Of a stretch of DNA of 64,000 bases, positions 6,691 to 60,681 are shown in pieces. The stretch covers positions 184,140,001 to 184,204,000 of the forward strand of contig OZ024743.1 of the NCBI GenBank assembly GCA_964016885.1. Direction: 5' to 3'. The notes below the pieces were generated by a model, which was not told the origin of the DNA, did not search any database, and was given only the letters and a program-made list of their open reading frames with translations. Position 1 is the stretch's first letter. Every line of letters begins with the position of its first letter. Made by a program: the position numbers and the translations under genes. Source of the DNA: Eledone cirrhosa (Eukaryota).

Positions 6691-7886
6691 GATAATAATG
6701 GAGCTGCGGCGTTGCAAATGGGTTACATATAAAAAAGTGAGTCCTTCATCAGTGACCCTCCAACCGTCCCAGGCATTTCATCGCTTTAAGGGCCATATAC
6801 CTCAGGTTGGTGCGAACAACGGCTAAAAAAAGTCGTTGGGACACGTAAATAAAGAGAACGTTAGGGTGAACAAACAAAATGGTTTAAGCAACAGAAAGTG
6901 AGAGGAAAGAGACAAGTCCCAGATTTCTATGAATATAAACTCGATAAAATCGTGAACTAGAGAATAAAGACCATCAGACCTGGTTGAAATGTGAGCAAGG
7001 AAGGAATTTCGCACAGGTCTAACGGGAGCAAGAAGAAGAAGGGGTCTGGTCTGCGAATTCGGTAAACATAAGTTCTGTGAAGACGCAGACGAGAGAGAGA
7101 GAGAAAAAAAATTCATACCGGCTTGGCCAAGAGTGCGCGAGAAAAGAAATCGGACAGGTCAAGCGGGAAGAAAGAGGAGTGGAGGAGAGGTAGTGACAGG
7201 GTAGCGATGAAATGCCTGGGACGGTTGGAGGGTCACTGATGAAGGACTCACTTTTTTATATGTAACCCATTTGCAACGCCGCAGCTCCATTATTATCATA
7301 TTTACACATATTTTTTCCTCTGCTGCCACCCGTCTGTTTCTCTCTTTGTATCTTTACCCTTTCTAGCAGTCTCTCTCTCTGTTAGCCTCTTCCTCAACTT
7401 TCACTCACTCATACCCTGTCACTACCTCTCCTCCACTCCTCTTTCTTCCCGCTTGACCTGTCCGATTTCTTTTCTCGCGCACTCTTGGCCAAGCCGGTAT
7501 GAATTTTTTTTCTCTCTCTCTCTCGTCTGCGTCTTCACAGAACTTATGTTTACCGAATTCGCAGACCAGACCCCTTCTTCTTCTTGCTCCCGTTAGACCT
7601 GTGCGAAATTCCTTCCTTGCTCACATTTCAACCAGGTCTGATGGTCTTTATTCTCTAGTTCACGATTTTATCGAGTTTATATTCATAGAAATCTGGGACT
7701 TGTCTCTTTCCTCTCACTTTCTGTTGCTTAAACCATTTTGTTTGTTCACCCTAACGTTCTCTTTATTTACGTGTCCCAACGACTTTTTTTAGCCGTTGTT
7801 CGCACCAACCTGAGGTATATGGCCCTTAAAGCGATGAAATGCCTGGGACGGTTGGAGGGTCACTGATGAAGGACTCACTTTTTTAT
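6691..7886. mobile_element. Non-coding family F element: 627-bp monomer in partial tandem (+, 7204-7886) with an inverted arm (-, 6691-7203)
   Basis: gcgatgaaatgcctggg occurs at 7204 and 7831. 6823-7116 is the reverse complement of 7499-7792. Flanked by (TA)n. Confidence 0.85.
7800..7877 (+). ncRNA. Candidate pseudoknotted, strand-shuffled hammerhead ribozyme (family F); inverted copy at 6738-6815
   Basis: GGTAT-A-TGGCCCT ... GCGAT-GAAA-TGCC ... AGGGTCA-CTGATGA. Stems I and III pair as in an HHR, but the strand order is non-standard. Confidence 0.5.
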
Positions 7887-7912
7887 ATATATATATATAT
7901 ATATATATATAT

Positions 7913-8114
7913 AGGAACCAGTAAGACCCCGACGGCTGAGCTCAAGCCGTTTCGACGGCTAATTCTTGACTAATTCAATCCAGAATTAGCCGTCGAAATG
8001 GCTTGAGCTCAGCCGTCGGGGTCTTACTGGTTCCTATTACCCACTCTACTACCCTAATTATTGAGTACTTTGGTGCGTTATGGTCCACCTGGTTCCTTAC
8101 CACATTTCCTTCGT
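7913..8114 (+). mobile_element. Family G short fold-back element containing only the 3' half of a hammerhead
   Basis: About 55-bp inverted arms centred near 7973. GAAA-YGGC-TTGAGCTCA-GCCG-TC-GGGGTC. Homologues at 14877, 47545, 50552 and 63499. Confidence 0.8.
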
Positions 8115-56864: not shown

Positions 56865-59779
56865 AGGAGGAGGTTATAGTTCACTTGAAGCATTGTGTAA
56901 TGAGGTATAAACGTTTGAATATGTGTAATAAAGCCAAAACAATGCAGGTATGGACATAGAAAAAAGAATGCAATTGTAAAAGATATTGTTGACAATTCGT
57001 CCTTTACCTTAAATTTATTTAAATGTCCTTAATTTTCGAGATAATATCTCTTCTTCAGAGGGAAATAAATGTCTCAAACCAGCGTTCTAAATATCTAGCC
57101 AAGCCATGCTGACAGCAAATAGTATAGAGTATCTGTTCTATCTCTAATATCAAAGAGTTAAAATTAGGTGGATAAAGAGTAGTCTCCCTTTAAAAGGGGT
57201 TTGTTTAGGGTTTTTTTATTTTTATTTTATATACATGCCTGTATAAGTGTGTGGGAGAATGCATGAAGGTGTAAGTATGTGTGTGTGTGTGTGTGAGTGT
57301 GAGAAGATAAGTCTATTCGTAAATGTGGGGGTTAGGTGTTATTTGGTGTTAGAACTGGTTTTGTGTGTGTATGTGTGAGAGAGAATAAGTGGAGGTGTAA
57401 GCGTGTGTGCGTGCGCGTGCGTGTGTGGGGTGTGTAAATGTGGGGCTAGAGGCCCTATCAGGTTATAAATTGGGTGTTGAGTTCTAGTCTATTATTGATT
57501 GGTGGTTGTGTTTTATCTATAATTAGTGCTTCCTTAATTCTAAGATTGCCGAGGTTTCTTTCCTTAGTTTCTATCCTAACTGTTATGGTTTTGTCGGTGT
57601 TTTTGCATTTAACTAGGTGTTTCTTAAATGAGGAAGCGTTAGTATTGAGGTGTTCTTTTATTCTTATGTGGAGTGGTCTGGTGGTGCTACCTACGTAGAA
57701 GTTGTTGCATTTGTCACACTCTAGTCTGTATACGACGTAAGCCTGGTGGCATAGGTCTGTGTCGTTGATGGGGCAGTTGGCTAGTCTGCAGCAGTTGTCA
57801 TGTCTGGTGGAGTGTCTCTTGGCCAGCCGTCCGCGCAGAGAAGGACCCGAGTGGGCCAGTTGGATATCCAGTCCCTCTCGTCTGATGGCTCTGCGGATGG
57901 CTGTTGTTGTTGCTTCACTGAAGTGTGGGAGCTTCAGGAAGCAAGTGTTAGTGCCTCGGGTGTGGTGTCCTCTGTTCTTTCTGGCACGGTTTGTGGTGGA
58001 TGTCGTGTATCCGTTCAGTTTGATTACTTCCAGGAAATGTGTGGTGTGTGTGTCTCGGTCTCTAGCGTCGGTGCATTTGTTCCGGATACGTGCCAGTTCG
58101 TTCCTTATGTATCCGAACTTGGCACCGAGTGGGAGGGCCGATCTGAAATGTACGAACAGGTCCCTGCTGGCGGATTTTTTATAGAAGCAGGTGTGGATGT
58201 TGCCTTCCTCTGTTACCCTGAGTTGGAAGTCCAGTAGGGATAGGGATCCGTGGTCATCGGGGTGTTCCATGCTGAACTTTATACTGGCGTCCATGCTGGA
58301 GAATGTTGTGTATATTTTATCTGCCTCCTCACGGGATGATGTAAGGATGAGTATGTCATCTACATATCGGGTGAAGAAGGCATGGGAATGGCAGGTGTTG
58401 AGGGCTCGGCATTCTAGCTGGTTCATGTAGGTGATGGCCAGCAGGCCCGATAGGCTGGATCCCATGGGTAATCCTGTTGTCTGTCTGTATGTGTGGTGGT
58501 GGAAGGTGAAGTACGTGTTGTCTACTGTGAAGGACAAAAGCTGGTGTATGTCCGTCGGGTGGAGGCCGTACCAGTGGATGTCCTCTGCGACCACGCAGTC
58601 CGTCAATAAATCGACAGATGGATGAGCGGGGACTGTAGTGTAGAGGGAGACAACGTCGAGGCTAAAAGCGTATTTATTTAGTTTAAGTTGTTCTGGCTGG
58701 AGTTGGTGTAGTCTACGTATAACTTCGTCGGAGCTACTGACATGCCCGGGAAAGGTGGAGAGTAGAGGCTTGAGGACCTGGGAGAGGAGCCAGGAAATTT
58801 TGTATAGGGGTCCTTCTCTGCTAGAGATGATGGGTCTTATTTGCGTCTTAGTACTATTCTTGTGGGTCTTGATGAGGTGGTAGAAAGTGGGCAGTCTGCT
58901 ATTTCTAGTGGTGAAGTTGAGCTTAACTTTATTTGGGAGTTGTCTTCTCCTACAGATATCGGACCAAATGGAGTTGGTCTGTTTTTCGATCTGGGCTGCA
59001 GTCATGTCCGGGATCACTGTGTATAATTCACTGTCGCTTAGGTGTTCGAAGGCTAGGTTATTGTATGTGGCTTGAGAGATGACGCAAAACCCTTTACCTT
59101 TGTCGGATGGTAAGTATATAAGTTCCCTATTCCGTAGGTTCTTCAGGGCGAGTTGTTGTGTCCTGGAGAGGTTTGGGGCCATCTTCTTCTGTTTCCGTAA
59201 GATGTTAAATACGGAATGTTTTAGTCTCGAGAGTTTTTCTTCAAGCTCGCGGTTGGCAGGCGGTGGACAGAGTGGGCGATCTAGTTGGTATATCGGGAAT
59301 CTGGGTTTGATGGATTCCGTGGTGTTGTTGTCGAGAGTCGATATCCATTTTAGTTGGTAGGCAACCCGACAGAAATTCGTTTCTATGTCGAGCCATAGTT
59401 TGTCGTCCAGTCTCTGTTTCAATATGAACTTGGAACCCAGGCTGAGGAGGTCTAATTCCTCTCGGGAGAGGGATCCTGTCAAGTCTGTGACGAGGTGTTT
59501 TGCGTCAGGTGTGTTGTTGGTCGGGGCGCCGCTAGGTTCGGTGTTGGTAACGTCTTGTTCGCCTCTGTTGGTATTTAGAGTTGGGATGTTGTTAAGACAG
59601 TTGACTGCCCTGAGTTTGAGAAATTTTTGCGTTAGACGTATTTTCTCGTAGTCTAGGCGGTGGTGGTATGATCTGTCTATAGTGGCGGAGATGACTCTGG
59701 ACAGAGGTTCTGGGGTTTCAGCGAGTTGTGGTACAAGGCTGGAAATAGTCCGTATGTGATGTTGTAGCGTGCGGTGTAG
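56865..59779 (-). mobile_element. PLE family C (Nematis/Neptune-like), 5'-truncated, open RT + GIY-YIG frame 57458 to about 59779, pseudo-LTR with HHR at 57026-57062
   Basis: PSDKGKG, FYHLIKTHK, IRPIIS, SLDVVSLYTTV, QTTGLPMGS, RYVDD, VVYRLECDKC..YVGSTTR, LRIKEAL, IN. Frame stays open upstream of 59482. Confidence 0.92.
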
Positions 59780-60681
59780 GTGTTGTATGAGTTTTCTTGT
59801 ACAATAAATTCCGGAACCAACAAATGGTATTACGTCGGATGTACCGCAACTTCTTTCAAAGCTCGCCTATACCAACATCGATCTTCGATCAGGCACGAGA
59901 AAATGCGCTCCGTAACAACCCTCGCCGATAAAGCCTGGCAGCTCCGGAGGAACAATCAAGCATTCTCCCTTGATTGGCAAATTATTGCAGCTGTGCCTGC
60001 ATATAAGCAAAATCATCGATTCTGCAAATTATGCAATTTGGAGATATACTGCATTTTAACGTCGGTAAACAAACTTTTGAACAGCAAAATTGAACGTTCA
60101 CTATACTGTAACCATCGTTTGAAAACGACTTTTTCTTTTTTTAAATGCATATAATGTTACCTTTTTACACCACCGTTTGCAAATTTCTGTTTTATATGTT
60201 TATACACAAGATATGGCTTTCTATAATACTAGTACTAAACACTGTTTTCTGGACCCCTTTAGAAATAACCTGCTACTATAATAGCCCCAATAACTTGTCT
60301 GTAACTCTGTACCACTTTGACCCCTTTAACTAAATTTTGTCCGAACAACACCACTAGAAGAATTTACTTCCCCCGCCAACCCTAACACGCCTCATTAAGC
60401 TAACTGCTGCCAAAACATTCTCTCCTTACAATCTCTACTAGTCTGACAGTCTTAAATCCTAGGACTCCCGCCACCTTACTCACTTCCCTCTTCCCCTTCT
60501 CTTCCTACCTCCTTCTTTCTCTTTTATCTAGTGTATAAAATATTTTCATATCATTCCAATACAAAGGTCTGACGACATGGTGTATTTGCTTACAGTGTAC
60601 CTTCGGTTTATGATAATATTTTTATATTATTCAAATAGCGAGGTATAGGTAACTCATACACTATAGAAACAATTGTTATCT
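59780..60681 (+). mobile_element. PLE family O 3' fragment: GIY-YIG endonuclease with CxLC insert (Hydra-clade-like, 59780-60154) + 3' UTR
   Basis: LYEFSC...YVGCTATSFKARLYQH...W.II..PAY...CKLCNLE...LLNSK.E...CNH. Confidence 0.8.
60565..60681 (+). ncRNA. Type I hammerhead with about 90-nt stem II (family O)
   Basis: AGGT-CTGACGA-CATGGTGTAT...ATACACTATA-GAAA-CAATTG-TT-ATCT. Confidence 0.8.

What the first reader, a model, noticed from the sequence alone, without database searches (positions are those of the whole stretch)
6691..60681. Recurrent bipolar insertions: two cDNAs joined 5'-to-5', with 3' ends pointing outward into (TA)n, sometimes from different families
Seen, same-family pairs: 6691/7886 (F), 16772/17321 (H), 31352/31583 (E), 34329/35737 (C), 37985/41350 (A), 45686/47523 (M). 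Seen, mixed pairs: E(-)+B(+) joined at 15600; G(-)+N(+) at 47736; C(-)+O(+) at 59779; Tx1(-)+B(+) near 1630. The two arms usually end at different 3' positions, and the central joints contain no (TA)n. Established: inverted 5'-truncated pseudo-LTRs are typical of Penelope. Inference: because (TA)n is self-complementary, both ends of a break present the same primer, each is extended on its own RNA, and the products are joined. Hetero-family pairs argue against simple fold-back.
Basis: partly seen in the sequence, partly recalled or inferred. Interest (0 to 1): 0.75.

Follow-up and report, generated by a model that had tools for sequence, protein, structure and literature searches.

The report
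Penelope twin priming, rare mixed pairs
Penelope-type jumping genes in this animal genome sit in TA repeats as back-to-back pairs whose two ends almost always stop at two different fixed sites, likely because both cut DNA ends copy one RNA, while a small minority of pairs join two unrelated families and likely record two separate copying events fused together.

Summary
The six same-family head-to-head pairs are real. The layout (inverted 5'-truncated copy, one-sided tail, (TA)n targets) is published for Penelope-like elements. In 1.9 Mb of this genome, 135 of 139 typed pairs have one long and one short end, and arms are often not nested. That excludes simple fold-back and argues for twin priming at the two known RT start sites, probably on one RNA rather than on one RNA per end.

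Of the four mixed pairs, E|B is fully valid. C|O is a real joint, but O's 3' end is cut off by a later A insertion. G|N and Tx1|B fail.

Nine mixed joints were found (seven outside the window), about 6% of pairs. They are enriched over chance adjacency (7 of 14 against 13% expected, p=0.001) and do not follow the long/short rule (4 of 7). They are likely two RNAs' cDNAs joined, at one break or as a rearrangement bridge as described for L1. Simultaneity is unproven: no empty sites, reads inconclusive. This scan noted the long/short rule and single mixed pairs before on other DNA of this genome.

The parts
6691..7883 (.). F pair (633-bp non-coding tandem family): F(-) long end at 6691, joint 7203, F(+) short end at 7883
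   Evidence: arms 0% different over 462 bp
16774..17320 (.). H pair (318-bp tandem unit, hammerhead-like core read by eye): H(-) long end, joint 16912, H(+) short end
31350..31582 (.). E pair (3' end of a Hydra-type PLE): short end left, joint 31418-31419, long end right
34330..35736 (.). C pair (3' end of an EN+ PLE): short end left, joint 35017-35020, long end right
37987..41347 (.). A pair (Neptune-type PLE): short-ended arm of 2.9 kb on the left, joint 40890, long-ended arm of 458 bp on the right; neither arm is nested in the other
45687..47522 (.). M pair (469-bp units with hammerhead HH9 matches below the gathering score): long end left, joint 45999-46005, short end right; arms share 13 rare variants
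15087..15613 (-). E arm of the mixed pair, long end on (TA)n, 99% identical to family copies
15611..16541 (+). B arm of the mixed pair (GIY-YIG-type C-terminal ORF plus 3' end), short end on (TA)n; 3-nt overlap with E
56866..59798 (-). C arm of the mixed pair (RT + GIY-YIG ORF), long end on (TA)n
59798..60685 (+). O arm (Hydra-type PLE), 1-nt overlap with C; 3' end clipped 42 bp before the family's short end
60679..63441 (.). A insertion with L1-style twin-priming geometry: inverted internal piece 60679-60794 (7-nt overlap with O), then A(+) 60792-63441 with long end on (TA)n
47545..48341 (.). G(-)G(+) pair clipped on the right by N(+) (about 47736-48341): a same-orientation joint, not a head-to-head mixed pair
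1..1747 (.). Tx1(-) up to about 1634 joined to a 118-bp B(+) end; the Tx1 3' end is not on (TA)n
7914..8114 (.). further G pair, short+long ends (another at 63499-63700)

Best explanation
These are insertions of endonuclease-bearing Penelope-like elements and their non-coding hitchhikers, likely made by twin priming in which both ends of a cut (TA)n tract start a cDNA at the family's two adjacent RT start sites. In same-family pairs the two sites are likely used once each on one RNA (or one asymmetric RNP), and the two cDNA ends are then likely joined through 0-4 nt of microhomology or a few inserted bases. Shown: fixed long and short ends per family, the one-of-each rule, non-nested arms, arms from the same subfamily, short microhomology at joints. 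Inferred: one RNA template, and that overlapping arms arise when the trailing RT displaces the leading cDNA. Mixed-family pairs (about 6% of pairs) are likely nascent cDNAs from two different RNPs joined end to end, either across one break or across two simultaneous breaks (about 0.55 for this part).
For: Two sharp 3'-end peaks in every well-sampled family. 135 of 139 typed pairs are long+short; 28 of 29 in the positional sample. Fold-back needs the short arm nested in the long one, but the short arm reaches more than 30 bp further in 19 of 46 autonomous pairs (long further in 18, level in 9). In 13 of 135 the long arm is tail-only, and in 11 more it stops within -15..+25 bp of the short site. 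In heterogeneous families (A, H, M, N), 12 of 16 partner arms have at most one other sampled copy closer. Microhomology of 2 nt or more in 21 of 48 joints without inserts, against 19% expected. Internally primed inverted pieces whose outer end lies 5-49 bp from the direct arm's 5' end in 7 of 15 cases, including window 60679. In vitro, the anole Poseidon protein cleaves and extends both strands, starts at two sites flanking the tail, and is a predicted dimer (PMC11167929). Mixed pairs: 7 head-to-head against 7 same-orientation TA-less joints outside the window, where 13.4% is expected from TA-adjacent ends (p=0.001; 9 of 18 with the window, p=2e-4). TA on the 5' side of monopolar copies is not shorter (median 44 vs 40). 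Only 1 deeply truncated same-orientation PLE joint was seen, where random deletion would predict at least as many as head-to-head joints. Mixed pairs are long+short in only 4 of 7 (Fisher p=0.002).
Against: 4 of 16 partner arms in heterogeneous families are not close to each other (A L229, H L003, window H, N L178), and young families E and F are uninformative. Two RNAs from one source locus on an asymmetric dimer would look the same. In vitro there was no strand difference in start-site use. Only 73 of 129 same-family joints could be scored for microhomology, and 25 of them had inserts. Mixed arms show no positive age correlation (Spearman -0.56, p=0.12, n=9), and two pairs are discordant (L203 0.17% vs 5.6%; L263 4.5% vs 0.8%). 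No empty site or flank continuity was found in 9 mixed loci examined. 178 of 712 arms have unclassified 5' neighbours. About half of the sample was anchored on search hits. n for mixed pairs is small.
Confidence: 0.62

Rival explanations
1. One reading: each end of the break is extended on its own, independently chosen RNA, in same-family and mixed pairs alike.
For: Mixed pairs exist and behave like independent draws (4 of 7 long+short). Overlapping arms are simplest with two templates. A dimer is predicted.
Against: 135 of 139 same-family pairs are long+short; arms match their own subfamily in 12 of 16; tail-only long arms abut the short site. It survives only as an asymmetric dimer loading two RNAs from one locus.
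Confidence: 0.2
2. Mixed pairs are secondary: two neighbouring same-family pairs broke at their palindromic centres and the DNA between was deleted, or a later element landed at the edge of the TA tract beside an older copy's 5' end.
For: TA-less joints to older elements do occur (window N|G, A|O; 7 more elsewhere). Long/short is random in mixed pairs. No age correlation. Partners cross clades (A|C, A|E, E|B).
Against: The edge-landing null predicts 13%, observed 50%. Same-orientation joints clip neighbours by less than 45 bp in all but one case. 7 of 9 pairs have both arms at 0.3-1.9% private divergence. Centre-to-centre deletion is not excluded.
Confidence: 0.38
3. Self-priming or fold-back of one cDNA, or of an antisense template, makes the inverted arm (proposed in PMC3846280).
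For: Published hypothesis. Family G pairs turn at a nearly fixed palindromic centre in 12 of 13 cases, and some pairs are symmetric, e.g. B L105.
Against: Non-nested arms in 19 of 46 autonomous pairs; tail-only arms in 13 of 135; mixed pairs.
Confidence: 0.08
4. The mixed junctions are assembly chimeras.
For: No public contig bridging E|B or C|O was listed (tables truncated).
Against: Joints have 1-7 nt overlap or 1-2 nt inserts between non-homologous sequences, recur at nine different loci with different partners and positions, and are biased in orientation.
Confidence: 0.04

Closest known systems
Insertion architecture of EN+ Penelope-like elements (PMC8557442 passages; PMC3846280 passages)
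   Same: Inverted 5'-truncated copy head-to-head, partial tandems, tail at only one end, (TA)n targets.
   Different: Here the one-tail rule is counted (135 of 139), tails run from about 28 to 140 bp, arms are shown to be non-nested, and pairs of different families and clades occur. The passages read describe no mixed pairs.
Poseidon PAc in vitro mechanism (PMC11167929; parts 1-2 of 4 read, covering the main text)
   Same: Both strands cut and extended; two adjacent internal RT start sites bound the tail.
   Different: In vitro start-site use did not differ by strand, and joining of the two cDNAs was not shown. The genomic data imply the two sites are used once each per event.
L1 twin priming and L1 chimeras with antisense partner RNAs (bioRxiv 10.1101/2024.08.27.596794 passages; PMC13174262 passages)
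   Same: Two cDNAs from opposite ends of a break, joined by microcomplementarity; opposite-orientation chimeras of different RNAs are ascribed to twin priming.
   Different: L1's second primer anneals at a chance internal site. Here it uses a fixed family site, and arms usually overlap by hundreds of bases.
Bridges from two synchronous L1 events (bioRxiv 10.1101/2024.08.27.596794; PMC13526784; passages)
   Same: Two distinct 5'-truncated elements in inverted orientation, joined at their 5' breakpoints with 3' ends outward.
   Different: Those are somatic or engineered, with the rearrangement demonstrated. Here the pairs lie in a genome assembly, partners are unrelated PLE families, and no rearrangement was shown.
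Metazoan non-LTR retrozymes (bioRxiv 10.64898/2026.07.22.740005, part 1 of 5 read)
   Same: F, H, M and N are non-coding tandem units; M has weak hammerhead matches and H a hammerhead-like core read by eye.
   Different: Here they share the PLE long/short end rule, which points to mobilisation by PLE proteins. Cleavage and circular RNA were not tested.

Membership tests
EN+ Penelope-like elements (C-terminal EN) | RT followed by C-terminal GIY-YIG endonuclease in one ORF | tested here: met
   Pfam RVT_1 + GIY-YIG above cut-off for C; weak GIY-YIG for O and weak RVT_1 for one A copy; no Pfam hit for the other A ORF or the B fragment; GIY-YIG-like motifs read in the A, B, C, E, O translations
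EN+ Penelope-like elements (C-terminal EN) | pseudo-LTR partial tandems | tested here: met
   A 17665-17891 matches 21747-21973; tandem B, C and E copies
EN+ Penelope-like elements (C-terminal EN) | inverted 5'-truncated copy and one-sided tail | tested here: met
EN+ Penelope-like elements (C-terminal EN) | hammerhead ribozyme in the pLTR, sense strand | tested here: inconclusive
   Core-pattern matches on the sense strand for E, M, P3, P9, P17, P19 and others, none by that pattern in F, H, N, G; Rfam HH9 matches in M below the gathering score; cleavage not testable
EN+ Penelope-like elements (C-terminal EN) | RT phylogeny within PLEs | not tested
   no tree built
Hydra clade (E, O) | CxCX5C linker, no CCHH motif, (TA)n targets | tested here: met
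   CxCX5C in E and O, CCHH not seen in E, O read only in part; definition
Neptune-type (A, B) | CX2-5CxxC linker plus CCHH motif | tested here: met
   motifs read by eye in the A and B translations; definition; Neptune versus Nematis not resolved without a tree
L1-style twin priming | second primer at a chance internal site; segments barely overlap | tested here: not met
   Met for a minority (7 of 15 internally ended inversions; 24 of 135 pairs with little or no overlap); most pairs use a fixed second site and overlap
Synchronous-insertion rearrangement bridge | flanks derive from different loci; reciprocal junction exists | not testable with these tools
   no empty site, relative genome or flank continuity available
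Non-LTR retrozymes (F, H, M, N) | self-cleavage and circular RNA | not testable with these tools
   no RNA run on record among the holders

The most novel reading that the evidence does not exclude
Mixed pairs are heritable bridges made when two Penelope-type elements of unrelated clades (Neptune-type with Hydra-type, or with a retrozyme) insert at the same time and their cDNAs are joined, possibly linking two different TA tracts. About 6% of bipolar insertions would then mark inversions, translocations or deletions, making PLEs a germline engine of chromosome rearrangement like the synchronous L1 events seen in tumours.
Probability: 0.25. Interest if true: 0.75.

Novelty: new variant of a known kind. 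Interest (0 to 1): 0.46.

Why it matters
How Penelope-like elements make their inverted ends is stated as unresolved in the literature. The one-long-one-short rule with non-nested arms separates twin priming from the published self-priming idea and gives a direct in vitro test. Mixed pairs, which break the rule, act as a natural control: they suggest the rule belongs to a single RNA or RNP, and that cDNAs from unrelated elements can be joined, possibly rearranging chromosomes. The basic layout is already known, and simultaneity of the mixed arms is unproven.

Tried and rejected
Read confirmation. Public contigs of 4 runs (at most 2 samples, 1 study) were laid on E|B and C|O. No bridging contig was listed, but the tables were truncated and contigs show presence, not absence, so this is no evidence either way.

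Flank continuity across mixed pairs: none found among sampled loci, 0 of 9 (the nine include L312 and L188 and omit L279 and C|O).

Rfam scan: among the 150 listed of 235 matches, only miRNA-type noise on TA tracts, one 3' UTR match and sub-threshold HH9 matches in M.

First library tiling was discarded because de novo entries were contaminated by G and H; it was cleaned.

Dropped before counting mixed head-to-head joints (7 of 16): L214 twice (an unsampled family resembling both P17 and B), L076 and L325 (P28, a SINE-like element by eye, nested with a duplicated target or a continuing host), L185 (61-bp partner without a 3' end), L312 and L188 (P16, class uncertain). Dropped from same-orientation joints (6 of 14): four with P28 and two between related families; one window case was added.

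The idea that a bipolar unit is copied whole was rejected, because joints vary between loci.

Exact microhomology could be scored for only 5 of 16 mixed joints; BLAST overlaps were used instead. The three short+short H pairs may be tiling artefacts but were kept in the count.

The sample could not be enlarged beyond 1.9 Mb, so the L279 C end stays untyped.
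Full report
Setting. The window is G000:C4:184140001-184204000 of a 3.0-Gb animal assembly. It is a stack of retroelements separated by (TA)n tracts. A, B, C, E and O are Penelope-like elements (PLEs) with a C-terminal GIY-YIG-type domain: Pfam finds RT and GIY-YIG in C, with weak or no hits in the others, and the motifs were read in translations. E and O carry the CxCX5C linker that defines the Hydra clade. [quoted passage not shown] No tree was built. 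F, H, M and N are non-coding tandem units of 633, 318, 469 and 486 bp; G is a short hairpin-like family.

Check of the observation. All six same-family pairs are present, with no TA at the joint and both outer ends on TA. Of the four mixed pairs, E(-)|B(+) is exactly as described: E copies match up to 15613 and B copies from 15611, and no other listed hit spans the joint. C(-)|O(+) joins at 59798, but O ends 42 bp before its family end and abuts A, not TA. At 47736, G is its own G(-)G(+) pair, and N(+) is joined to the clipped G(+) arm in the same orientation. The Tx1 partner of B at 1630 has its 3' end on an AAT-type tail upstream of the window. So one mixed pair is fully valid, one partly valid, and two fail.

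Sample. I gathered 330 loci plus the window, merged to 287 stretches of 1.91 Mb: 210 search-anchored loci, 20 extensions of such loci, 80 evenly spaced 10-kb stretches on C1-C4 and 20 stretches beside the window. A library of the ten window families plus recurrent TA-adjacent families yielded 747 arms with an intact 3' end on TA. Their 5' neighbours were: 370 an inverted same-family arm, 118 TA, 24 another family head-to-head, 14 another family in the same orientation, 2 other, 21 at an edge and 198 unclassified.

The long/short rule. Each well-sampled family has two sharp 3' end sites, about 28-140 bp apart. Of 139 same-family pairs with both ends typed, 135 have one of each, 3 are short+short and 1 is long+long; in the positional sample 28 of 29. 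All six window pairs obey. The tail at one end only is published (PMC8557442, passages; PMC3846280, passages). The tail corresponds to the stretch between two RT start sites of a Poseidon protein that cuts and extends both strands (PMC11167929, parts 1-2 of 4). Independent RNAs choosing a site freely would give at most half mixed ends.

Fold-back test. A cDNA that folds back can only copy what it holds, so the short-ended arm must nest in the long-ended one. In 46 pairs of the autonomous families the short arm reaches more than 30 bp further in 19, the long arm in 18, and 9 are level. In 13 of 135 pairs the long arm is only part of the tail and shares nothing with the other arm; in 11 more it stops within -15..+25 bp of the short site. 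Two RNA-templated syntheses are therefore needed. G turns at a nearly fixed palindrome in 12 of 13 pairs and may be an exception.

One RNA or two. In the heterogeneous families A, H, M and N, 12 of 16 partner arms have at most one other sampled copy closer, and the window M arms share 13 rare variants. Four pairs are not close. The young families E and F are uninformative: over all 41 scored pairs (2 skipped), the partner is at least as close as the best other copy in 20. Joints without inserts have 2 nt or more of microhomology in 21 of 48 cases against 19% expected; 25 of 73 scored joints have inserts, and 56 of 129 could not be scored. The A copy at 60679-63441 has L1-style geometry: an inverted internal piece whose outer end lies 6 bp from where the direct arm starts, with a 7-nt overlap with O. 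Seven of 15 such internally ended inversions lie within 5-49 bp. Together these favour both DNA ends working on one RNA. An asymmetric dimer holding two transcripts of one locus is not excluded.

Mixed pairs. After dropping 7 of 16 flagged joints (listed under Tried and rejected), nine remain: A|C (L203), G|P9 (L263), B|H (L091), P17|B (L109), P3|E (L049), C|H (L279), A|E (L119) and the two in the window. Joints show 1-7 nt overlap or 1-2 inserted bases. That is 9 against 139 typed same-family pairs, and 2 against 29 in the positional sample. If they arose by a later element landing at the edge of a TA tract, head-to-head joints should be 13.4% of TA-less mixed joints (110 5' ends among 822 TA-adjacent ends). 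Observed: 7 of 14 outside the window (p=0.001) and 9 of 18 with it. TA tracts at 5' ends are not shorter. Random deletions should leave at least as many deeply truncated same-orientation joints; I found one (window 27825), while the other eight clip less than 45 bp. Mixed pairs are long+short in 4 of 7 typed cases, unlike same-family pairs (Fisher p=0.002). Against simultaneity: arm ages do not correlate (rho -0.56, p=0.12), two pairs are discordant (perhaps through unsampled subfamilies), no flank continuity was found, and contigs neither confirmed nor denied the junctions. The window pairs have private divergence 4/524 vs 6/597 (E|B) and 8/598 vs 2/598 (C|O).

Mechanism. Most likely the PLE protein cuts both strands of (TA)n, and each 3' end primes at one of the two start sites on the same RNA. 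The trailing RT either stops at the leading primer or displaces the leading cDNA (inferred; lack of RNase H in PLE RTs is recalled, not from a call). The cDNA ends are then joined. When the second end anneals to the first cDNA without its own synthesis, a monopolar copy with TA on both sides would result. Rarely, cDNAs of two RNPs would be joined, giving mixed pairs with uncoordinated ends. For L1, opposite-orientation chimeras are ascribed to twin priming (PMC13174262, passages), and two synchronous insertions can be joined 5'-to-5' as rearrangement bridges (bioRxiv 10.1101/2024.08.27.596794, passages; PMC13526784, passages). In reporter assays 0-6 bp of homology gave no detectable joining, although that paper notes genomic cases with little or no homology.

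Novelty. The architecture is known. Searches (listings, plus the passages named) showed no paper that counts the long/short rule or describes mixed-family PLE pairs. The library lacks most subscription papers, including older PLE reviews, and I did not open supplements (for example the genomic tail figure of PMC11167929), which may bear on this. This scan reported the rule and single mixed pairs before on other DNA of this genome. Those notes are not independent support; my reading was formed before the look-up.

Verdict. A real and recurrent feature, a new variant of a known kind. Interest 0.46.

Noticed in passing
window 60679-63441: A insertion with classical L1-type twin-priming geometry, primed from non-TA DNA with a 7-nt overlap; it removed at least 42 bp of O's 3' end.
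   Followed up: yes
window 27153-27825 and 27826 onward: The 5' end of A(-) is joined, without TA, to the interior of a different PLE ORF (similar to E) in the same orientation; the only deeply truncated same-orientation joint found.
   Followed up: partly
window 7914-8114, 47545-47735, 63499-63700, 50544-50960: Family G pairs turn at a nearly constant palindromic centre about 55-60 bp from the short end, unlike other families; the copy near 50700-50900 spans the window's 200-N gap.
   Followed up: partly
window 48366-48553; L076:7038-7218; L325:146-304: P28 looks by eye like a tRNA-derived SINE; it inserts into PLE copies (duplicated target at L076) and can mimic mixed pairs.
   Followed up: partly
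window 6013-6562 and 23897-27152: A CR1-like LINE (3374-6155) is followed after (TA)n by a short inverted copy of its own 3' end; a second, 96-99% identical copy lies 20 kb away.
   Followed up: no
window 18585-18791: Asn/His/Thr-rich low-complexity insert in the A ORF upstream of the RT, also seen in B; recalls the N-rich inserts of rotifer Penelope elements.
   Followed up: no
window 10908-12965: RTE-type RT ORF with a PHD-finger match inside the C-terminal half.
   Followed up: no
L312 (C8), 1270-8452 in the merged stretch: An F array of about 11 units, 99% identical, whose 5' end is joined head-to-head to a 108-bp end of family P16; fits rolling or multimer reverse transcription.
   Followed up: partly
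L162-L190 (family N): All 18 monopolar N copies use the short end, but the query selected for it; monopolar copies overall were 68 short, 39 long and 11 untyped.
   Followed up: no
L319/L320 and L321/L329 (C2, about 450 kb apart): Two F pairs with the same layout and neighbours in mirror orientation, suggesting an inverted segmental duplication; both were counted.
   Followed up: no
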